A DNA stretch of 64,000 bases from Candidatus Portnoybacteria bacterium (GCA_016208745.1 JACQXN010000020.1:9062-73061); one strand, 5' to 3'. Shown: positions 5,098 to 63,205, numbered from the stretch's first letter. Numbers and translations are program-made. Notes: generated from the letters alone by a model not told the origin.

Positions 5098-8275
<3,178 letters not shown>

Positions 8276-8483
8276 TTCTTATTATTGGTATTTATACGAA
8301 ATAAAAAAGCGCCGTTTTATTAGCGCTTAAAGAGATGGGCGCGACAGAGAAAGGAAAGGAGAAATAGTTTTTTGCAGTTGGGGCCGGTTTCCCCTTCTGC
8401 AAAATCCTACCCTGTCGCGCCCGGCAAATTGGAAATTAGAAATTAGGGTACTATATTGCAATAATAGGTTAACTCAAATAACT

Positions 8484-8512
8484 TGTCAAGAGACAGGCGA
8501 AATATTATACTA
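8484..8512 (+). promoter_or_regulatory. Sigma70-like promoter, TTGTCA-17-TATACT, upstream of glyQS
   Basis: TTGTCA at 8484-8489, a 17-nt spacer, then TATACT at 8507-8512. Confidence 0.4.
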
Positions 8513-8654
8513 AGTTTAGTTATCGTAGCAGATTTTTACGTTTTTTGATTATTTAACTTTCAACCATGCAAGAAAACAATCTTATGGATAAAATAGTGAG
8601 TCTTTGTAAAAGGCGGGCCGCCCCTTTGGCGAGCCTCGCCTGACTTTTTAACAT

Positions 8655-9968
8655 ATGAAAGAAAATAATACAAACAATCAATCTGTGATGGATAAAATAG
8701 TAAGTTTATGCAAAAGGCGGGGTTTTATTTTTCCGGGTTCGGAAATTTATGGCGGTTTGGCCAATACTTATGATTATGGTCCGCTTGGCGTTGAACTTAA
8801 AAATAATATCAAGAATCTTTGGTGGAAATATTTTGTTCAGACTCGAGATGACATGGTTGGTTTGGACGGCGGGATAATTTCTAATGCCAAAATATGGGAA
8901 GCTTCAGGCCATATTAAAAATTTTAAAGACCCATTGGTAGAATGCAAAAAATGTCATCATCGCTTCCGGCCTGATAAATTAATAGATCCTTCAAAATGTC
9001 CTGACTGCGGCGGAGAATTTACCGAATCAAAAATGTTTAGCGGTTTATTCAAAACAACCATTGGGCCAGTTGAAGAAGAAGGAGAAATTGCTTATTTGCG
9101 GCCTGAAACCGCCCAGAATATGTTTGTGAATTTTAAAAATATTCTTGATTCATCGGGCAAAAAATTGCCGTTTGGCATTGGGCAAATGGGCAAGGCGTTT
9201 CGCAACGAAATAACGACCGGCAATTTTATTTTTCGGACTTTAGAATTTGAGCAAATGGAAATAGAATATTTCATTGCGCCCCAAAGCGATTGGAATAAAA
9301 TTTTTGAAAGTTGGCTGGAATATATTTATGGCTACGCTGATTTAATCGGGCTGGCGCGCGATAATTTCTTTAACCACGAAATTCCGGATGAAGAACGCGC
9401 TTTTTATTCCAAAAGAACAATTGACATAGAATATAAATTTCCTTTCGGCCAAGATGAACTTTGGGCAATTGCCTATCGGACAGATTATGATTTATCAGCG
9501 CATCAAAAAGCATCAAGCAGGAATCTTGAATATTTTGATGAAGAAACTAAGAAAAGATTTATTCCCCATGTGATTGAGCCGACTTTTGGCGTTGATAGAA
9601 CACTACTAGCTCTTTTATCAGAAAGTTACAGCGAAGAAGAAGGTAGAGTTGTTCTAAAGTTAAATCCTAAAGTCGCGCCATATAAAGCGGCGATATTTCC
9701 ATTATTGGCCAATAAGCCGCAATTGGTTGAGTCGGCACGTAAAATTTATGAGGATTTGCGGAAAGAATTTAATGTGGCTTTTGACGATCGCGGCAATATT
9801 GGCAAGCGTTATTTTTCTCAAGATGAAATCGGAACGCCTTTTTGTATTACAATTGATTTTGATAGCCTAGAGAAAAGCGATGTCACAGTACGCGATAGAG
9901 ATACAATGAAGCAGGAAAGGATTAAGATAGAGGACTTGAAGAGTTATTTTGAGAAGAAGCTGAATTAA
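8655..9968 (+). CDS. glyQS: Glycyl-tRNA synthetase, dimeric archaeal/eukaryal-type
   Basis: The N-terminus DKIVSLCKRRGFIFPGSEIYGGLANTYDYGPLG is diagnostic of alpha2 GlyRS, and class II motifs are present. Confidence 0.9.
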   Translation: MKENNTNNQSVMDKIVSLCKRRGFIFPGSEIYGGLANTYDYGPLGVELKNNIKNLWWKYFVQTRDDMVGLDGGIISNAKIWEASGHIKNFKDPLVECKKCHHRFRPDKLIDPSKCPDCGGEFTESKMFSGLFKTTIGPVEEEGEIAYLRPETAQNMFVNFKNILDSSGKKLPFGIGQMGKAFRNEITTGNFIFRTLEFEQMEIEYFIAPQSDWNKIFESWLEYIYGYADLIGLARDNFFNHEIPDEERAFYSKRTIDIEYKFPFGQDELWAIAYRTDYDLSAHQKASSRNLEYFDEETKKRFIPHVIEPTFGVDRTLLALLSESYSEEEGRVVLKLNPKVAPYKAAIFPLLANKPQLVESARKIYEDLRKEFNVAFDDRGNIGKRYFSQDEIGTPFCITIDFDSLEKSDVTVRDRDTMKQERIKIEDLKSYFEKKLN

Positions 9969-9978
9969 TTTTCTTTAA

Positions 9979-10168
9979 GCCACTTTTTGTGCCGACAAAA
10001 AGTGGCCAAAAAACTCTCGCCACGCGTAAAAAATAAAGAAAAATCGGGCTCGCTTCGCTAAATTTGCTATGCCCAGCGCTTCGCGCTGACAACCACAACA
10101 CGCAAATTTTTAACGCTCGGCTCGTCTCGATTTTCTAGTTATTTTTTCGCGATGGCGAATAAATTTTA
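9979..10168 (+). repeat. Copy 1 of a ~190-bp structured intergenic repeat, glyQS to M16 peptidase
   Basis: A 5' hairpin CCACTTTTTGTGCCGACAAAAAGTGG, conserved blocks AAAAAACTCTCGCCA, ATCGGGCTCGCTTCGCTAAATTTGCTATGC and ACGCAAATTTTTAACGCTCGGCTCG, and a variable apical hairpin. Confidence 0.65.
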
Positions 10169-10172
10169 GGCC

Positions 10173-11441
10173 ATGTTTAAAAAATATACTTTACCAAATG
10201 GTTTGAGAATTATTACGGCGCCGATTGAAGGAAGTAAATCGGTGACGGTTTTAGTTTTGGTTGGAACCGGCTCAAAATATGAGACAAAAGAGAATAATGG
10301 CTTATCTCATTTTTTAGAACACATGTTTTTTAAGGGGACAAAAAAGCGGCCGACCACCTTGGAAATTTCTTCTGATTTAGACGCGGTTGGCGGATCATAC
10401 AATGCCTTTACTTCAAAAGAGATGACTGGTTATTGGGCTAAGGTTGATGCTTCCCATTTTGATCTGGCGCTTGATTGGGTCTCAGATATATTTTTAAATT
10501 CAAAATTAGAAGAAGAAGAAATTGAGCGGGAAAAAGGCGTGATTTTGGAAGAAGTTAATATGTATTTGGATACGCCAATGACCGATATCTGGCATATTTG
10601 GGAGAAACTTTTATACGGCGATCAGCCAGCCGGTTGGCTGACGCTTGGCGAAAGAGAAATTATAAAATCAATGCGGCGCGAGCAGTTTTTGCAGTATCTT
10701 AAAAATCAATATGTCGCTAAAAACACAATGGTCGTTGTGGCCGGAAGCGAAAAAATAATTCAAAATTCAAAATCTAAAATTCAAAATTGTTTCAAAGATA
10801 TAAGAAAAGGGAGTTTTAAAAATAAACAAAAGGCCGTTGAGAAACAAAAAACACCGCAGGTTTTAATCCGTTTTAAAGAAACCGACCAGACACATTTAGT
10901 TTTGGGCGGGCGAAGTTATGATATTTTTCATAGAGACAGATTTGCTGCGGCTCTTTTAAATACGATCCTTGGCGGCTATATGAGTTCGCGTTTATGGATT
11001 GAAATTAGGGAGCGCCGGGGTCTAGCTTATTATGTCCGTTCAATCAATGAGACATATACTGACACAGGATATTTAGTGGCCAACGCCGGGCTTGATATTT
11101 CAAGAATCGACGAAGCGATAAAGGTTATTTTGGGAGAATTTAAAAAAATTAAAGAAGAGAAAGTTCCCGATAAGGAGCTTAAGAAAGCTAAAGATCATAT
11201 TAGGGGCGCGACTTTATTGGCTTTGGAATCATCTGATGAAATGGCCTCATATTTGGGCATGCAAGAAGTGATCAAAAAACAAATCTTGACACCAGAGCAA
11301 TTTTTCAGTAAAATAGAGAAAGTAACTCCTAATGATTTACAGCGAGTGGCTAAAGAAATTTTCCGACCTGAAAAATTAAATTTGGCCTTAATCGGGCCAT
11401 TTAAAGATAAGCAGAAGTTTGAGCGGTTGATTAAGATCTAA
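10173..11441 (+). CDS. M16 family zinc peptidase (insulinase-like)
   Basis: It has the inverted zinc motif HFLEHMFFKGT and the N-terminus MFKKYTLPNGLRII typical of M16B. Confidence 0.8.
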   Translation: MFKKYTLPNGLRIITAPIEGSKSVTVLVLVGTGSKYETKENNGLSHFLEHMFFKGTKKRPTTLEISSDLDAVGGSYNAFTSKEMTGYWAKVDASHFDLALDWVSDIFLNSKLEEEEIEREKGVILEEVNMYLDTPMTDIWHIWEKLLYGDQPAGWLTLGEREIIKSMRREQFLQYLKNQYVAKNTMVVVAGSEKIIQNSKSKIQNCFKDIRKGSFKNKQKAVEKQKTPQVLIRFKETDQTHLVLGGRSYDIFHRDRFAAALLNTILGGYMSSRLWIEIRERRGLAYYVRSINETYTDTGYLVANAGLDISRIDEAIKVILGEFKKIKEEKVPDKELKKAKDHIRGATLLALESSDEMASYLGMQEVIKKQILTPEQFFSKIEKVTPNDLQRVAKEIFRPEKLNLALIGPFKDKQKFERLIKI

Positions 11442-27810: not shown

Positions 27811-27963
27811 CTACGGAATACAGATAAGTACAGATATACGGATAAAAACAAAATCCACCCCGCCCCTCCTTTAAAAAGGAGGGAGATTCCTCCCTTTGAA
27901 AAAGGGAGGGTAGGAGGGATTTGGATTTAATCTGTATATCTGTAATAAATCCATAATCCGTAG
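27811..27963. mobile_element. MITE-like element. It has roughly 35-bp terminal inverted repeats (CTACGGAATACAGATAAGTACAGATATACGGAT) and a CCTCC-family palindromic core.
   Basis: The left end 27811-27845 and the reverse complement of the right end 27925-27963 match. A second copy with the same TIRs and a different core is at 44658-44858. Confidence 0.6.
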
Positions 27964-52749: not shown

Positions 52750-52779
52750 TTTTTGAATTGAATCATAGGCTCTGTTATT

Positions 52780-52849
52780 TGTCATTCCCGCGAAAGCGGG
52801 AATCCAGGCTCTTTTTTGAATCTAGATTCCCGCTTTCGCGGGAATGACA
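52780..52849. mobile_element. MITE of the TGTCATTCCCGC-TIR family (inverted pair of REP-like hairpins)
   Basis: TGTCATTCCCGCGAAAGCGGGAATCCAG...ATCTAGATTCCCGCTTTCGCGGGAATGACA. The two halves are reverse complements of each other. Confidence 0.6.
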
Positions 52850-52923
52850 AGACTGAGTATTATGTAATTCAAGCAGGAAGTTTTTTAAAAACAAAATAAA
52901 ACAAAAACATAAGGAGGCAAAAG

Positions 52924-54162
52924 ATGAAAGCAAGATTGAACGGTGTTTTTTTGGTGGCTTGTGCGGTTTTTTTCTTATTAACCTTAACCAGCGCGAGTTT
53001 CGCGTATGAACTGCCAAAGATGGTCGGCATTACCTGTGATGACGGGCAAGCCGATTCTTTGGAAAGAATGCTGTCTGTCACGATCCCTCTTGGGCTCAAG
53101 GTTGACCTTTTTTTGGTTACTGATTTCCTTGATGAAGGGGATTGGTCTATTGACTGGGCCAGGGCGAAAGAGCTCCAAACTCTTTATCCCGGCCTAGTTA
53201 AAATCAATAGTCACTCAAGGACTCATCCCTACTTTACGTCGCTTACCAATGCGCGATTGATTGATGAGACGCGCGGCTCAAAGCTTCAGTTCTCGGCTCA
53301 CGGCATTAATACAGATGACATGGGGATCGCCACGCCGTATGGCGACTTCAACCTTAAGGTCTTGTCTTTTGTGGCAAGATATTATCCTTGGCATCGGGCG
53401 GCTTGGGATTATGATGGTGATGGCGTGATCAACAAATGGCCTTTAAATGATTGTCAGTTGGAGATCTTTGAGCCGACACCGAATATGCCGGGCGAAGAAG
53501 TGATTGCCCGGGTCCAAGAAGACATAGCGCAAGGTGGACTTCCATTGCTTTTATTCCACGAATTTACGCCGGCTGGCGTTGTGCCGGGAGATTGGCAATA
53601 TCCAATTGAGGAATTCAAAAAAATTGTAAATTGGATTGCCGCAAACAGTGACACGATTAAATCTGTCACGATTTCGGAGGCACTGCATCTAACCGACGCC
53701 CCAAATTTGGTGAAAAACTATTCTTTTACTAACCGGAATGTTAATGGTTGGGCGAAGAATTGGTCGCGGAGCGGCGCGGGAGTTACGATCAATACGGCTC
53801 ACCAGGGCAATTTTCCTGAATTTACAAACAGCTTGCGAATTGTCGGTGGTTCTGTGGAGCGCAAAGCCTGGAACGATCAGGTGCCAGTGGATGAGGGCTC
53901 CGAATACATTATCAAGATGTATCAGAGCTGCCAGAATTGGGTCGCGGGCGGTTGGTGCGTCTGGGTTGATGAATTTAACTTAGACGGATATTATATTGGC
54001 GGCCAACGGTTAGGAGGCAACTACTGGAACTTCGTTGGCTGGCGGTATTATCAATATCAGCCTTCACCCGGAACCGCCAAAGCTTCTATCCAACCTTATG
54101 TAGAGGCGGGCAGTCGGTTGACTCTGTTCGTTGATTCAGTGGAGATGAGGAAGCTGCCATAG
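52924..54162 (+). CDS. Secreted polysaccharide deacetylase (NodB) with a C-terminal CBM-like domain; paralogue A
   Basis: Signal peptide, NodB motifs (ITCDDGQAD, NSHSRTHP), and a C-terminal CBM-like domain (NLVKNYSFTN...FVDSVEMRKL). Confidence 0.75.
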   Translation: MKARLNGVFLVACAVFFLLTLTSASFAYELPKMVGITCDDGQADSLERMLSVTIPLGLKVDLFLVTDFLDEGDWSIDWARAKELQTLYPGLVKINSHSRTHPYFTSLTNARLIDETRGSKLQFSAHGINTDDMGIATPYGDFNLKVLSFVARYYPWHRAAWDYDGDGVINKWPLNDCQLEIFEPTPNMPGEEVIARVQEDIAQGGLPLLLFHEFTPAGVVPGDWQYPIEEFKKIVNWIAANSDTIKSVTISEALHLTDAPNLVKNYSFTNRNVNGWAKNWSRSGAGVTINTAHQGNFPEFTNSLRIVGGSVERKAWNDQVPVDEGSEYIIKMYQSCQNWVAGGWCVWVDEFNLDGYYIGGQRLGGNYWNFVGWRYYQYQPSPGTAKASIQPYVEAGSRLTLFVDSVEMRKLP

Positions 54163-54257
54163 ATAATTATTTCCCCCTTTATAAAAGGGGGATTCAGGGG
54201 GATTTTTAAAATCCCTCCCAGCCTCCTTTTTTCAAGGGAGGAGTAAGAAAACAAATA

Positions 54258-54397: not shown

Positions 54398-55621
54398 ATG
54401 GAAACAAGAAAGGTAGTAAGTATTTGGATGATTATTTTAGCGGTAACTTTTATGGTAACCGCGAATTCGGCCGCTTATGAGCCGCCGGCCAAGTGTACAA
54501 TCTTTTTTGATGATGGTCAGAGGTCAATTTATGACATCGCCTTGCCTATAATGGCGGCGAGAAACCTTAAGGCCGTAATTTGCCCTAGGGCCGATTGGAT
54601 GGGTTTGGGAGAAGGCTGGGTGATGAACTGGGAAGAGGTCTCGACTCTGAAGACGCAATATAAGTGGGAAGTTACCAGCCATGGAATAGACCATCCAGAT
54701 TTCACCACATTGTCAGACCCGGATCTGGAATGGCAGATGATAGGTTCCAAGGATGCATTTGCCGACCACAATATTATTGTTAGGGGCATCGCAACGCCTT
54801 TTGGTGCTTACAATGGCAAGGTTTTGTCGGCTATCGCCAGAAACTATTTTTGGCATCGCACAGCAGACGCAGGGGTGGATTCTTGGCCCTATAATGACTA
54901 TATGCTTAAGGTTATAGAGCCAAAAAGGGACACGCCGCCTGAAGATGTAATTACGCAACTTCAGGACGCCTTTGCTCAAGGCCAATGGCCTAAGCTTTTG
55001 TTTCACAATCTCGTGGATGGGGTGCCGTTGGATTATCAATACAACTCGGCGGACTTCGCCCAGATTATGGACTTTATCCAAGCAGAGAGAGACCGGGGAG
55101 CCGTTAAGGTTGTGACGGTTACGCAAGGTTTGAGGTTGCCTGCTGGCAACAACTTGGTGCCAAACAGCAGCTTTGAGAATTTAAAACCCAACGGTTGGCC
55201 AAAAAATTGGTGGCTGAATGATGGGGCTGATTCAAGCAAAGTCTTCTTGGACAACGCTAATCACGGTAATTTTCCAAAGCCGAAAAACTCCATCAAGATT
55301 ATTGGTGATGCTCTGCCGCAAGGCATCCAATCAGCCAAAATCGCAGTCAGCAGTAATTCTGAGTATATCGTCAAGATGTTTCAGAATGTTCAAGATCTTG
55401 TTGCTGGTGGTTGGAGCGTCCATGTAGACGAATTTGACTCATCTGGCGCTTATATCGGGACTCGGTGCCTTGGCAACAACTGGGATAATTTCTTTGACTG
55501 CCGGTATTATGAATATCAGCCATCTGTCAAAGCCGTGAAAACGGCTATCATAATTTCAACTTGGGAAAACAGCGAGTTGACGCTACGTGTTGACTCGGTT
55601 GAATTCCGGAGATTAAATTAG
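54398..55621 (+). CDS. Secreted polysaccharide deacetylase (NodB) with a C-terminal CBM-like domain; paralogue B
   Basis: Same architecture as 52924..54162 (IFFDDGQRS, SHGIDHP, C-terminal ...VDSVEFRRLN). This is a tandem duplicate that includes the downstream repeat and terminator. Confidence 0.75.
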   Translation: METRKVVSIWMIILAVTFMVTANSAAYEPPAKCTIFFDDGQRSIYDIALPIMAARNLKAVICPRADWMGLGEGWVMNWEEVSTLKTQYKWEVTSHGIDHPDFTTLSDPDLEWQMIGSKDAFADHNIIVRGIATPFGAYNGKVLSAIARNYFWHRTADAGVDSWPYNDYMLKVIEPKRDTPPEDVITQLQDAFAQGQWPKLLFHNLVDGVPLDYQYNSADFAQIMDFIQAERDRGAVKVVTVTQGLRLPAGNNLVPNSSFENLKPNGWPKNWWLNDGADSSKVFLDNANHGNFPKPKNSIKIIGDALPQGIQSAKIAVSSNSEYIVKMFQNVQDLVAGGWSVHVDEFDSSGAYIGTRCLGNNWDNFFDCRYYEYQPSVKAVKTAIIISTWENSELTLRVDSVEFRRLN

Positions 55622-55684
55622 CAAAAAGGGGAATAAATCCACCCCACCCCTCCTTTTTCAAAGGAGGGAGTAAAAAAACAAATA

Positions 55685-55718
55685 TACCCGGCGCAAAGCA
55701 ATGCGTCGGGTTTTTAAT
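55685..55718 (+). terminator. Intrinsic terminator (duplicate of 54258-54294)
   Basis: ACCCGGCGC-N9-GCGTCGGGT plus TTTTT. Confidence 0.55.
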
Positions 55719-55768
55719 TTGTCCGGCCTTTATTTTCAGGAAGTTATCCACAATAAACTTTTGACGTC

Positions 55769-56240
55769 TTGACAGCATTTTACTATTTGCTAAACTAATA
55801 TAACGCCTTAAAAAGGCGCTAAAAAACCATAGATTAAAATTAGAAAACAAAATTAGAATTTAGATTTAAACCACCTACGGAGGGTAGCGAGAATCGTAAT
55901 GCAAGAGCCCGATAAGCTCACACATTACATACTGATTGACTAGAAGGGTGGTTTTTTTATTTTCTCGTCAAAAATTTCAAGTGTTAACGCAGAAATTTTT
56001 GTAACGAGAAAATAACCCCGCATTTATTCTTACCAAAGGGCAAGAAGACCAGTAAACGAAGGCGCAGGTCTCAAGGCCGGAGCCGTTTCGCGCAATAATA
56101 CAGAAATAGATAAACTTGGCTGGAATAAGTGCGGGGTTGAAAACAGAATTTATTGTCCGCATACCCGCCGTCGCCAAGGCTTTGGCGGGCAGGCGCGGGA
56201 GATTCTTCTCCGTCCGCAAATGCGGACGGAGAAGAATGAC
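55769..56240 (+). ncRNA. Copy A of a conserved promoter plus structured non-coding element of unknown class
   Basis: Promoter TTGACA-16-TAAACT, then hairpin H1 (AAACCACC...GGTGGTTT plus T-run), hairpin H2 (16-bp stem), a domain H3 closed by a 15-bp stem ACCCCGCAYTTATTC/GAATAAGTGCGGGGT, and a 17-bp perfect hairpin at 56195-56236. It is homologous to 62808-63205 with compensatory changes. Confidence 0.5.
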
Positions 56241-57412: not shown

Positions 57413-57737
57413 CTATTTTTTGCGAAACGAGCAGGAGAAGCTTTCGGGCTTCTCCTCTCGGATAAGCTCTTAATTTATTTCCCCCTTTTTAAAGGGGGAT
57501 AAAGGGGGATTTAAAAAGACAAATCTAAATCCACCCCTCCCCTCCTTTAAAAAGGAGGGGAGGAATATCGATTGATAGCTTATGCGAGGGAAAAATGCCA
57601 GAATTTCTAATTACTCCGCCCAAGGCGGATCCGCCTCTGGCGGATAATTCAATCCCAATGCCCAATGTCAAGATTTAAAAATTAGACATTTGGGAACTAA
57701 ATATTTTATTGGAAATTAGGAATTATTTAAGAAATTT

Positions 57738-58346: not shown

Positions 58347-58544
58347 ATTCACTGAATCATAAAGCGGGCATTTTTTGCCTCCCCTCCTCAGATGAGGAGG
58401 GGAATTAAAGGGGTGGTGGTGACCTTAATAATTCAACACCCCACCCTACCCCTCCCCTCATCTGAGGGGAGGGAAGACGCCTATTTTATAATTCAATGTT
58501 AAGCCAATATTTTAATCTAACTCCGGAGGGAAGTTATATCGGTT

Positions 58545-62807: not shown

Positions 62808-63205
62808 TTGACGCTGTTTTTTTGTTTGGTTAAACTGATATAACGGGCTGGAAAAAGCGAGATTTTTTTCATCTGAAATTAATCTTTGTTATTTTAGAAT
62901 GCGATTGGGACATGATTATTTTATTTTAATTTTTTCAATTAGTTAAAAAACCACCTAATTATCAATAACTATGCTGAGGGAAAAACCCAAAATTGCATTT
63001 ATAGTTAGCTGAAAAGAAAGGGTGGTTTTTATTTGTTTGTCAAAATTTTAGAACTCGCCGCAGCGAGCGATAAAAATTTTATAACAAACAAATAACCCCG
63101 CACTTATTCTTACCAAAGAGCAAGAATGTCAAAGAACAAAGGCGTAGCCGTTTCGTGCGATAAGACGGAAATAAGAATACTTGGCTGGAATAAGTGCGGG
63201 GTAAC
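62808..63205 (+). ncRNA. Copy B of the conserved promoter plus structured non-coding element
   Basis: Promoter TTGACG-17-TAAACT and H1/H2/H3 homologous to copy A. The H2 stem is TTTGTTTGT/ACAAACAAA where copy A has TTCTCGT/ACGAGAA, a compensatory change. Spurious ORFs are called over it. Confidence 0.5.

What the first reader, a model, noticed from the sequence alone, without database searches (positions are those of the whole stretch)
8337..8654. glyQS leader: long GC-clamped stem-loop, then a uORF that duplicates the first 11 codons of glyQS and ends in a terminator-like hairpin
8337-8423 forms GGGCGCGACAG...CTGTCGCGCCC (11-bp stem) enclosing TTGCAG-TTGGGGCCGGTTTCCCC-TTCTGCAA sub-hairpins. 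After the TTGTCA-17-TATACT promoter at 8484-8512, the leader contains ATGGATAAAATAGTGAGTCTTTGTAAAAGGCGGGCCGCCCCTTTGGCGAGCCTCGCCTGA (8584-8643). This encodes MDKIVSLCKRRAAPLASLA*, whose first 11 residues equal MDKIVSLCKRR of the real gene start at about 8688. Its 3' part, GGCGAG-CC-TCGCC followed by TGACTTTTT, looks like an intrinsic terminator right before the glyQS RBS. This is either a footprint of a duplication or insertion event, or an attenuator-like leader peptide arrangement.
Basis: seen in the sequence. Interest (0 to 1): 0.5.

Follow-up and report, generated by a model that had tools for sequence, protein, structure and literature searches.

The report
Duplicated glyQS start: a recombination scar
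In this Candidatus Portnoybacteria genome a one-off DNA rearrangement duplicated the first ~75 bases of the glycyl-tRNA synthetase gene, leaving the old start as a 25-codon mini-ORF in front of the working gene; this is an evolutionary scar, not a conserved regulatory switch, and the long hairpin beside it belongs to a separate RNA probably transcribed in the opposite direction.

Summary
The duplication is longer than reported. Unit A (8546-8617) and unit B (8641-8721) each hold the end of the 5'UTR, an ATG, a short N-terminal extension and MDKIVSLCKRR. A 23-nt GC-rich segment joins them.

About a dozen related lineages keep the same promoter. Unit A sits at the ancestral distance from it, so the uORF (8566-8643) is the orphaned original start of glyQS. 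None of about 95 related loci has the duplication.

The uORF has no Gly codon. The leader has no antiterminator alternative and no T-box. It is therefore a lineage-specific scar, not a conserved attenuator. All four core differences between the units are synonymous (P~0.001), which favours recombination between diverged glyQS alleles over a recent in-place duplication.

Expression probably needs ribosomes on the uORF to melt the -21 kcal/mol junction hairpin and then restart 11 nt downstream. This step is inferred.

The 8337-8423 hairpin lies upstream of the glyQS promoter. It sits between a conserved minus-strand promoter, which shares the palindromic -35, and a minus-strand terminator. It is probably an unannotated divergent small RNA.

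The parts
8298..8328 (-). Terminator of the minus-strand RNA. The hairpin AAGCGCUAAUAAAACGGCGCUU lies at 8328-8307 and is followed by UUUUAUUU.
   Evidence: The terminator scan calls it on the - strand only, and it appears in the fold. Relatives L083, L092, L093 and L097 carry a homologous AAGCGC...GCGCUUUUU hairpin at the same place.
8337..8423 (-). Long GC-clamped hairpin with a 13-bp closing stem, an apical GGGG/CCCC sub-hairpin and an unpaired CU-rich stretch, AACUAUUUCUCCUU. It is the probable body of a ~155-nt divergent small RNA.
   Evidence: It lies upstream of the glyQS promoter. Structured RNAs at the same position in L083 and L097 show covariation, with G.U pairs only on the minus strand.
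8461..8489 (-). Minus-strand sigma-70-type promoter TTGACA-17-TATTAT (11/12). The transcription start is predicted near 8454.
   Evidence: TTGACA followed by N16-18 and TATAAT or a near variant is kept in 11 other lineages.
8483..8511 (+). glyQS promoter TTGTCA-17-TATACT. Its -35 (TTGTCAA) is the reverse complement of the minus-strand -35, so the two promoters overlap back to back. The transcription start is predicted near 8518.
   Evidence: TTGTCAA-N16-TATRCT is kept upstream of glyQS in all close relatives.
8546..8617 (+). Unit A: the ancestral end of the 5'UTR (TGATTATTTAAC..), ATG 8566, a short N-terminal extension (MQENNL) and codons MDKIVSLCKRR(G). This is the orphaned original 5' end of glyQS.
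   Evidence: Alignment to unit B. The distance from the -35 to the KIVSLCKRR motif is 107 nt, inside the 85-110 nt range of relatives. The ..N-L-M-D-K context matches the family consensus.
8566..8643 (+). uORF of 25 codons, MQENNLMDKIVSLCKRRAAPLASLA*. It has no Gly codon. It reads through the junction hairpin and stops at TGA 8641-8643, 11 nt before ATG 8655.
8618..8640 (+). A 23-nt GC-rich junction segment, CCGCCCCTTTGGCGAGCCTCGCC, between the two units. It has no other copy in the window or in the viral contigs.
8611..8649 (+). Junction hairpin (8611-8641, 12 bp with two bulges, -21.7 kcal/mol) followed by GAC and UUUUU (8645-8649). It is terminator-like. Its 5' arm is made of the K-R-R-(G) codons of unit A.
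8641..8721 (+). Unit B: the second copy of the 5'UTR end (TGACTTTTTAAC..), ATG 8655, the extension MKENNTNNQSV and MDKIVSLCKRR(G). It continues into the functional gene.
8655..9968 (+). glyQS, the class II glycine-tRNA ligase. It is 437 aa from ATG 8655; NCBI aa from ATG 8688.
   Evidence: (Pfam tRNA-synt_2b and HGTP_anticodon).

Best explanation
Two unrelated things sit side by side.

(1) The uORF is an evolutionary scar. The original 5' end of glyQS is unit A (8546-8617): the last ~20 nt of the 5'UTR, the start codon and 17 codons. A ~104-nt insertion cut it off from the gene body. The insertion consists of a 23-nt GC-rich segment plus a second, diverged copy of the same 5' end (unit B, 8641-8721), which now heads the working gene.

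The most likely origin is recombination with a diverged glyQS allele from a related strain. One end would have been anchored by homology inside the gene and the other joined illegitimately at AAAAGGCGGG, as in homology-facilitated illegitimate recombination.

The likely present-day operation is inferred, not shown. Transcription starts at the conserved promoter. Ribosomes start at the old ATG 8566, translate 25 codons through the -21 kcal/mol junction hairpin and stop at UGA 8641. While translating, they keep the hairpin from acting as a terminator. They or fresh ribosomes then start at AUG 8655, 11 nt downstream, or at AUG 8688. The arrangement is tolerated, not regulatory.

(2) The 8337-8423 hairpin is not in the glyQS leader. 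It is the body of a ~155-nt RNA transcribed on the minus strand. Its promoter has a -35 hexamer that overlaps the glyQS -35 on the opposite strand, and the RNA ends at a minus-strand intrinsic terminator next to the tgt stop codon. It exposes a CU-rich, anti-Shine-Dalgarno-like stretch. Its function is unknown. Suggested roles are pairing with ribosome-binding sites, or competing with glyQS for RNA polymerase at the shared -35.
For: Scar:
- The promoter TTGTCAA-N16-TATRCT is conserved upstream of glyQS in about 12 lineages. The -35-to-KIVSLCKRR distance is 85-110 nt in relatives, 107 nt for unit A and 211 nt for unit B.
- The duplicated N-terminal motif occurs only in the window and its two re-assemblies among 96 loci.
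- The repeat includes 5'UTR sequence, so both units derive from real glyQS loci.
- All 4 differences in the 11-codon core are synonymous. Four random substitutions would leave the peptide unchanged with probability about 0.001.
- The net length difference in the N-terminal extension is 15 nt, which is in frame.
- The region is identical in three assemblies.

Not an attenuator:
- The uORF has 0 Gly codons.
- With the hairpin's 3' arm blocked, its 5' arm finds no upstream partner; the leader energy goes from -31.9 to -17.2 kcal/mol.
- Rfam has no hit at E<=10.

Geometry for coupling: the hairpin spans 8611-8641, inside uORF codons 16-26, the last being the stop codon, and the stop lies 11 nt before ATG 8655.

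Minus-strand RNA:
- A TTGACA-17-TATTAT promoter and a terminator are found on the - strand only.
- The same layout is seen in L083, L092, L093, L097 and L098.
- The L083/L097 closing stem keeps 16/16 pairs, with 5 double and 4 single compensatory changes. Its G.U pairs would be A.C mismatches on the other strand.
Against: - No donor allele and no uninterrupted sister allele was found. The nearest GlyRS in 5.8 billion proteins is 82% identical, so the origin cannot be dated or polarised.
- The 23-nt junction segment is nearly complementary to the adjacent AGGCGGG. That fits a templated filler made during an in-place duplication better than a chance donor sequence.
- The synonymous-only argument rests on 4 substitutions.
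- Translation of the uORF, read-through of the hairpin and reinitiation are all inferred.
- For the small RNA, the window's hairpin shares no detectable sequence or covariance-model similarity with those of relatives. Homology is therefore positional only.
- The genome holds many other long intergenic hairpins, so this one could be a generic element.
Confidence: 0.6

Rival explanations
1. In-place tandem duplication. A ~72-nt piece (5'UTR end plus the first 17 codons) was duplicated within this genome by replication slippage or template switching. The 23-nt GC-rich segment is a templated filler, and the two copies diverged afterwards. This is still a scar but has a different origin.
For: The two units are adjacent and in the same orientation. 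The filler is quasi-palindromic and pairs with the adjacent AGGCGGG, as expected for snap-back synthesis. No donor was found.
Against: After an in-place duplication the orphaned copy A would drift neutrally. Yet 4 of 4 core differences are synonymous (P~0.001 for four random hits, ~0.03 for two), and the indels in the extension sum to an in-frame 15 nt. About 12% divergence with zero amino-acid change in the core is hard to reach unless the uORF peptide itself is under selection.
Confidence: 0.25
2. Functional translation-coupled attenuator of the pyrBI type. The uORF is kept so that a closely following ribosome melts the terminator hairpin, which couples glyQS transcription to translational capacity.
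For: The uORF reads through a stable hairpin followed by a U-run, and its stop codon overlaps the hairpin's last base pair (U8641). U-rich runs lie upstream of the uORF.
Against: It is absent from all ~95 related loci. The uORF has no Gly codon and there is no antiterminator. The U-run is only 5 nt long and starts 3 nt after the stem. The peptide's N-terminus is explained by descent from glyQS. Such coupling would give feed-forward control of an essential synthetase, not homeostatic control.
Confidence: 0.1
3. The 8337-8423 hairpin is a generic intergenic palindromic element (REP/MITE-like), or a 3' stabiliser or terminator of tgt, and not a dedicated minus-strand small RNA.
For: The window holds many long GC-clamped intergenic hairpins. 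The hairpin also folds well on the + strand, at -45.1 kcal/mol. Covariance models built from relatives do not find it, and nucleotide similarity is absent.
Against: A near-consensus promoter points into it and is kept in about 12 lineages. The U-run terminator exists only on the minus strand. G.U pairs in relatives fit only the minus strand. No second copy of the element exists in 64 kb.
Confidence: 0.3
4. Assembly artefact: two strain haplotypes of the glyQS start were concatenated by the assembler.
For: The source is a metagenome-assembled genome, and the copies differ at synonymous sites as strain variants do.
Against: The same 451 nt appear in assemblies of two other sequencing runs made by a different pipeline. 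The only sequence shared at the junction is about 10 nt, too short for a k-mer join. The 23-nt segment and the differing UTR parts are not explained.
Confidence: 0.03
5. Programmed translational bypass. Ribosomes starting at ATG 8566 take off at ..AGG CGG and land on the identical codons 104 nt downstream, making GlyRS with the ancestral N-terminus.
For: Identical AAAAGGCGGG sequences lie at both sites, and a stable hairpin begins at the putative take-off site.
Against: Unit B has its own ATG and UTR, so no bypass is needed. No stop codon follows the take-off codon; the stop is 8 codons later. The 104-nt gap is twice that of T4 gene 60. The arrangement is not conserved.
Confidence: 0.01

Closest known systems
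Homology-facilitated illegitimate recombination (HFIR). Linear DNA is integrated with one homologous and one illegitimate junction; described in naturally competent bacteria and in E. coli conjugation (PMC3240628, found).
   Same: The outcome fits. The resident sequence left of the illegitimate join (unit A) is retained. Incoming DNA supplies its own upstream sequence plus the 5' end of the gene (unit B). The join falls at a short GC-rich shared motif, GGCGGG. The differences between the copies look allelic: synonymous substitutions and in-frame indels.
   Different: No donor was identified, and competence or the DNA uptake route in this CPR organism was not examined. The right-hand homologous junction cannot be located.
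Leader-peptide transcription attenuators (trp, his, pheST type) and the pyrBI translation-coupled attenuator (established knowledge).
   Same: A short ORF sits in the leader of an aminoacyl-tRNA synthetase gene, followed by or overlapping a GC-rich hairpin with a U-run. The ORF reads through the hairpin, as in pyrBI.
   Different: There are no codons for the cognate amino acid and no alternative antiterminator. The arrangement is not conserved in relatives. The peptide is a truncated copy of the enzyme's own N-terminus.
T-box riboswitch of glyQS in Firmicutes (Rfam RF00230).
   Same: The same gene and the same position, in the 5' leader, with a terminator-like hairpin before the start.
   Different: No T-box match even at E<=10. 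The leader is only ~136 nt long and most of it is the uORF.
Termination-reinitiation, or translational coupling, between closely spaced ORFs (established knowledge).
   Same: The uORF stop lies 11 nt upstream of the next ATG, and no Shine-Dalgarno sequence precedes that ATG.
   Different: Coupling here would be an accident of a rearrangement, not an operon design. It is untested.
Bidirectional or divergent bacterial promoters that arise from promoter-element symmetry (bioRxiv 10.1101/2020.01.31.928960; PMC12825309).
   Same: Two promoters on opposite strands share a pseudo-symmetric element, so one RNA polymerase binding event should exclude the other. The pair is conserved across lineages.
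   Different: By my own recollection, which I did not check in the papers, the described class shares the -10 element. Here the shared element is the -35 (TTGTCAA/TTGACAA), with the -10 boxes on the outside and the start sites about 65 bp apart.
C/U-rich regulatory small RNAs that pair with Shine-Dalgarno sequences, such as RsaE/RoxS (established knowledge).
   Same: An independent promoter and terminator, a stable hairpin body, and an exposed CU-rich stretch. That stretch is UUUCUCCUUUCC in the window and CCCUCCUC or CACCUCCUU in relatives.
   Different: There is no sequence or Rfam relationship. No targets have been identified and expression has not been shown.

Membership tests
T-box leader (RF00230) | A match to the T-box covariance model (specifier loop, T-box motif, terminator/antiterminator) | tested here: not met
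   Rfam at gathering threshold over the whole window finds only one tRNA. The permissive scan of 8200-8800 at E<=10 gives no T-box.
Leader-peptide attenuator (trp/his/pheST type) | A short ORF in the leader upstream of, or overlapping, a terminator | tested here: met
   The uORF spans 8566-8643 and the hairpin 8611-8641, followed by a U-run. Translation itself is not testable here.
Leader-peptide attenuator (trp/his/pheST type) | Regulatory codons for the cognate amino acid (Gly) in the leader peptide | tested here: not met
   MQENNLMDKIVSLCKRRAAPLASLA contains no glycine.
Leader-peptide attenuator (trp/his/pheST type) | A mutually exclusive antiterminator structure | tested here: not met
   With the 3' arm blocked, the 5' arm forms only a small local hairpin, and the leader energy goes from -31.9 to -17.2 kcal/mol. 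The hairpin's pair probability is 0.81-0.999.
Leader-peptide attenuator (trp/his/pheST type) | Conservation of the leader ORF and terminator in related genomes | tested here: not met
   A second KIVSLCKRR-type motif is found only in the window, L001 and L002 among 96 loci. The leaders of relatives are 36-54 nt long without a uORF.
Intrinsic (Rho-independent) terminator | A GC-rich stem immediately followed by a U-tract | tested here: inconclusive
   The stem is strong, at -21.7 kcal/mol. The pattern scan accepts it, but the U-run is only 5 nt long and begins 3 nt after the extended stem. Its activity is not testable here.
Partial gene duplication / recombination scar | Two homologous copies of the gene's 5' end. 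One is in the ancestral position and truncated, the other is contiguous with the gene. | tested here: met
   Alignment score 75.5 against 32.2 +/- 5.3 for shuffles. The distance to the promoter is 107 nt for unit A and 211 nt for unit B, against 85-110 nt in relatives.
Homology-facilitated illegitimate recombination | An identifiable donor allele and one homologous junction | not testable with these tools
   No relative lies closer than 82%. The junction segment is absent from the viral contigs. The allelic pattern of differences is only indirect support.
Translational bypass (T4 gene 60 type) | A stop codon directly after the take-off codon, and a downstream ORF that lacks its own start | tested here: not met
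   The stop is 8 codons after ..KRR. Unit B has ATG 8655 and ATG 8688.
Independent small-RNA gene (minus strand) | Its own promoter and its own terminator on the same strand | tested here: met
   TTGACA-17-TATTAT (11/12) at 8489-8461 and a terminator at 8328-8307 with a U-run, both on the - strand. The promoter is conserved in relatives. These are consensus matches only; expression is not testable here.
Independent small-RNA gene (minus strand) | Covariation supporting the RNA structure | tested here: inconclusive
   It is met for the positional counterparts L083/L097, where 16/16 closing-stem pairs are kept with 5 double changes. It is weak for L092/L093/L098. The window's own hairpin has no alignable homologue.
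Known structured RNAs (SRP RNA, 6S RNA, Y RNA, RNase P, tmRNA and others in Rfam 15) | A match to the family covariance model | tested here: not met
   No hit in the window region or in the counterparts of 11 related loci.

The most novel reading that the evidence does not exclude
The scar has been co-opted. The orphaned start now acts as a newly born, translation-coupled attenuator of an essential aminoacyl-tRNA synthetase gene. It works together with a conserved, previously undescribed CPR small RNA. That RNA's promoter shares its -35 hexamer with the glyQS promoter, so the two transcripts would be mutually exclusive, and its exposed anti-Shine-Dalgarno-like stretch would act on translation.
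Probability: 0.08. Interest if true: 0.6.

Novelty: new member of a known kind. Interest (0 to 1): 0.3.

Why it matters
For annotation, the ORF at 8566-8643 should be flagged as a remnant of glyQS, not as a leader peptide, and the glyQS start (8655 or 8688) is ambiguous.

For evolution, it is a clean small example of how an essential gene survives a rearrangement inside its own 5' end: the incoming piece brings a replacement start. The synonymous-only differences hint at DNA exchange between related CPR strains, about which little is known.

The more useful by-product is the conserved back-to-back promoter pair upstream of glyQS in Portnoybacteria-like genomes. It drives an unannotated structured RNA, 90-120 nt in some lineages and 300-600 nt in others. 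Regulatory RNAs of the Candidate Phyla Radiation are almost unexplored, which makes this a concrete candidate for transcript mapping.

Tried and rejected
- Rfam scans of the window and of 11 related loci, at gathering and permissive thresholds, found nothing in the region. ARAGORN found only a distant tRNA-Leu.
- blastn of the hairpin and the leader against 82 related loci found only the glyQS coding starts.
- I searched for other copies of the stem, the junction hairpin and the 26-nt junction sequence. None was found in the window or in the viral contigs.
- Two covariance models built from the small-RNA counterparts (R1 from L083/L101/L097, R2 from L092/L093/L098) did not detect each other's members or the window hairpin. 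A single family therefore could not be shown.
- All-against-all blastn of the minus-strand regions showed that the window matches relatives only inside tgt.
- A possible second scar at the 3' end of glyQS (9942-9972 versus 10137-10167, 71% identity) was rejected. The second copy is simply the 3' arm of another long hairpin.
- I looked for closer relatives to polarise the event. The nearest GlyRS is 82% identical and its own 90% cluster holds only this organism. L106, the closest relative, has only 54 nt of upstream sequence.
- A literature search for CPR small RNAs returned nothing relevant.

Full report
WHAT IS THERE

The window comes from a Candidatus Portnoybacteria (Patescibacteria/CPR) metagenome-assembled genome. 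The GlyRS encoded at 8688-9968 is identical to NCBI MBI4709196.1. The gene order is a 636-aa surface-type protein (5098-7008), tgt (7052-8275), a 380-nt spacer, glyQS (8655-9968), and then a peptidase M16 homologue at 10173, identified by synteny with L083 and L089.

- The 11-nt stem GGGCGCGACAG lies at 8337-8347 and its complement at 8412-8422. These are the only two matches in 64 kb. The region folds far better than shuffles on both strands.
- The promoter TTGTCA-17-TATACT is at 8483-8511.
- The uORF is longer than stated. It runs 8566-8643 and encodes MQENNLMDKIVSLCKRRAAPLASLA*.
- The repeat is also longer. It is not only 8584-8617 versus 8688-8721 (88%). It extends to 8546-8617 versus 8641-8721 and covers about 12 nt of 5'UTR (TGAYTWTTTAAC), the ATG and the N-terminal extension. 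The alignment scores 75.5, against 32.2 +/- 5.3 for shuffles.
- Between the units lie 23 GC-rich bases, CCGCCCCTTTGGCGAGCCTCGCC (8618-8640).
It is AGGCGGGCCGCC/CCUUU/GGCGAGCCUCGCCU at 8611-8641, -21.7 kcal/mol. It is followed by GAC and five U.

IS IT REAL?

The same 451 nt are 100% identical in Logan assemblies of two other sequencing runs. In one of those contigs tgt differs from the window's by one residue. The only sequence shared at the junction is about 10 nt, too short for a k-mer mis-join. I therefore treat the structure as real.

WHAT RELATIVES SHOW

The nearest GlyRS proteins in the 5.8-billion-protein collection are 79-82% identical. I fetched their loci with the look-up of encoding contigs and with a promoter-plus-start DNA pattern scan of the metagenome contigs.

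In about a dozen lineages the promoter TTGTCAA-N16-TATRCT lies upstream of glyQS. These are L083, L087, L092, L093, L094, L096, L097, L098, L099, L105 and L107. The leader from the -10 to the first in-frame ATG is 36-54 nt in most of them. The distance from the -35 to the KIVSLCKRR motif is 85-110 nt. It is 160 nt in L087, where a GTCATTCC...GAATGAC palindromic element sits in the 5'UTR.

In the window that distance is 107 nt for the upstream copy and 211 nt for the downstream copy. Unit A is therefore the ancestral start of glyQS, and unit B plus the 23-nt segment is the insertion.

Unit A also keeps the family-typical context before the conserved Met. Among 87 homologues with an extension, residue -1 is Leu in 50 and residue -2 is Asp or Asn in 70. 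Unit A reads ..N-L-M-D-K and unit B reads ..S-V-M-D-K.

A second KIVSLCKRR-type motif is found in none of the other loci, 96 loci in all. The arrangement is a lineage-specific event, not a conserved leader.

ORIGIN

The 11-codon core differs at four nucleotides, and all four changes are synonymous. Only 19% of single substitutions there are synonymous. Four random hits would leave the peptide intact with probability about 0.001, and two hits with about 0.03. The indels in the N-terminal extension sum to 15 nt, which is in frame.

If copy A had been an idle remnant since an in-place duplication, it should have collected amino-acid changes. The simplest reading is that both copies diverged as working glyQS alleles in separate lineages and were joined recently.

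That is the outcome of recombination with one homologous and one illegitimate junction, known as homology-facilitated illegitimate recombination (PMC3240628). The illegitimate join would be at AAAAGGCGGG.

In that reading the 23-nt segment is the donor's own 5'UTR hairpin. Small hairpins followed by U-rich runs also occur in the glyQS 5'UTRs of L092, L093 and L097 (AGCGCAAAGGCGU-CUGUUUUAUU) and in unit A's own UTR (CGUAGCAGAUUUUUACG-UUUUUU).

The main rival is an in-place tandem duplication with a templated filler. It is favoured by the filler's near-complementarity to the adjacent AGGCGGG. No donor and no uninterrupted sister allele exists in the databases, so this cannot be settled. I put allelic recombination at about 0.5 and in-place duplication at about 0.25.

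HOW IT WORKS NOW (INFERRED)

The uORF has no glycine codon. No T-box or other Rfam leader matches. When the hairpin's 3' arm is blocked, the 5' arm finds no upstream partner. Classical amino-acid-sensing attenuation is therefore excluded.

GlyRS is essential, so transcripts from the single conserved promoter must pass the hairpin. The geometry suggests how. The uORF starts in the ancestral, presumably efficient, initiation context. It reads through the whole hairpin (codons 16-26, the last being the stop codon). It stops at UGA 8641-8643, whose U is the last paired base of the stem. The next ATG, at 8655, is 11 nt downstream and has no Shine-Dalgarno sequence.

A translating ribosome would keep the hairpin open, so there would be no termination. 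It would also deliver ribosomes to the glyQS start by termination-reinitiation. This resembles the geometry of the pyrBI attenuator, but nothing indicates a sensed signal. I regard it as a tolerated scar. A co-opted regulator gets about 0.1.

THE LONG HAIRPIN

It is not in the glyQS leader. The promoter scan finds a better promoter on the minus strand, TTGACA-17-TATTAT (11/12) at 8489-8461. Its -35 is the reverse complement of the glyQS -35. The scan also finds a terminator with a U-run on the minus strand only, at 8328-8307. Together they predict a ~155-nt RNA: about 30 nt of leader, the 87-nt hairpin, then the terminator.

The minus-strand TTGACA-N16-18-TATAAT (or one or two mismatches) is kept in all the lineages above. 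L083, L092, L093, L097 and L098 have the same layout: a 90-120-nt GC-clamped branched hairpin followed by an AAGCGC...GCGCUUUUU terminator.

Between L083 and L097 the 16-bp closing stem keeps every pair through 5 double and 4 single changes. It contains G.U pairs that would be A.C mismatches on the other strand. That shows a selected RNA structure on the minus strand.

The hairpins carry CU-rich, anti-Shine-Dalgarno-like stretches. These are CCCUCCUC and CACCUCCUU in relatives. In the window the stretch is UUUCUCCUUUCC, most of it (UUUCUCCUU) in an unpaired loop.

There are caveats. The window hairpin is not detectably homologous to the others, whether tested with covariance models R1 and R2 or with blastn. 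Other lineages (L087, L094, L096, L099, L105, L107) have a 300-600-nt structured stretch there instead. The window also contains many other long intergenic hairpins. I give the small-RNA reading about 0.55-0.6. The function is unknown. My working guesses are pairing with ribosome-binding sites and competition with glyQS for RNA polymerase at the shared -35. Promoter symmetry causing mutually exclusive polymerase binding is discussed in PMC12825309 and bioRxiv 10.1101/2020.01.31.928960.

COMPARISON WITH KNOWN SYSTEMS AND VERDICT

The uORF works like none of the regulatory leader families. It fails the defining tests for T-box and leader-peptide attenuators. It fits the known kind 'partial gene duplication or recombination scar at an essential gene', with possible accidental translational coupling. 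That is a new instance of a known kind and of modest interest.

The divergent structured RNA with a shared -35 is unannotated and could be new. However, the evidence here is consensus motifs plus covariation in two relatives, without expression data.

Overall interest is 0.3.

Noticed in passing
window 8461-8511; L083 2905-2965; L092 2400-2460; L093 1025-1085; L097, L098, L087, L094, L096, L099, L105, L107: A back-to-back promoter pair is conserved upstream of glyQS in about 12 CPR lineages. The palindromic -35 (TTGTCAA/TTGACAA) is shared, and good -10 boxes sit on both outer sides.
   Followed up: partly
L087 2360-2900; L094 340-960; L096; L099/L102; L105; L107 640-1060: In these relatives the same minus-strand promoter faces a 300-600-nt GC-rich, ORF-free, highly structured stretch instead of a ~100-nt hairpin. 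Several of these stretches begin with GCCUGCGG-N-GGG. None hits Rfam, so this may be an undescribed large structured RNA.
   Followed up: partly
window 9979-10006 and 10017-10158: The 205-nt spacer between glyQS and the M16 peptidase gene holds a 12-bp hairpin and a ~140-nt GC-clamped hairpin (-48 kcal/mol). The NIF3 and dodecin genes that follow glyQS in L083 and L093 are absent here.
   Followed up: partly
window 52779-52850; L087 2972-3056: These are GTCATTCC...GGAATGAC-type palindromic elements (97% complementary arms in the window copy). In L087 one sits inside the glyQS 5'UTR and inflates the called N-terminus (..DSSAFGLRMT.., also seen in P0086). They look like a dispersed MITE/REP-like family of CPR genomes.
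   Followed up: no
window 27829-27944, 54137-54237, 55602-55730, 57481-57558, 58381-58472: Several intergenic long hairpins contain nested CCCCTCC...GGAGGGG sub-hairpins. Two of them are weak hits (E 0.007-0.03) of the covariance model built from the L092/L093/L098 RNA. That suggests a shared module or a repeat family.
   Followed up: no
window 56014-56138 and 63095-63202: Two copies of one hairpin element have the arms ACCCCGCACTTATTCTTACCAA / TTGGCTGGAATAAGTGCGGGGT, 7 kb apart.
   Followed up: no
window 8655 vs 8688: The annotated start is ambiguous. NCBI calls GlyRS from ATG 8688 (426 aa) and the Logan gene call from ATG 8655 (437 aa). Most relatives have a short in-frame extension ending in [DN]-L before the conserved Met, which unit B lacks.
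   Followed up: partly
L092 2085-2185: An extra ~100-nt hairpin (AGCGTAACGAG...CTCGTTACGCT) with its own U-run lies between tgt and the small-RNA terminator in L092 only. It is another sign that this spacer is a hot spot for structured insertions.
   Followed up: no
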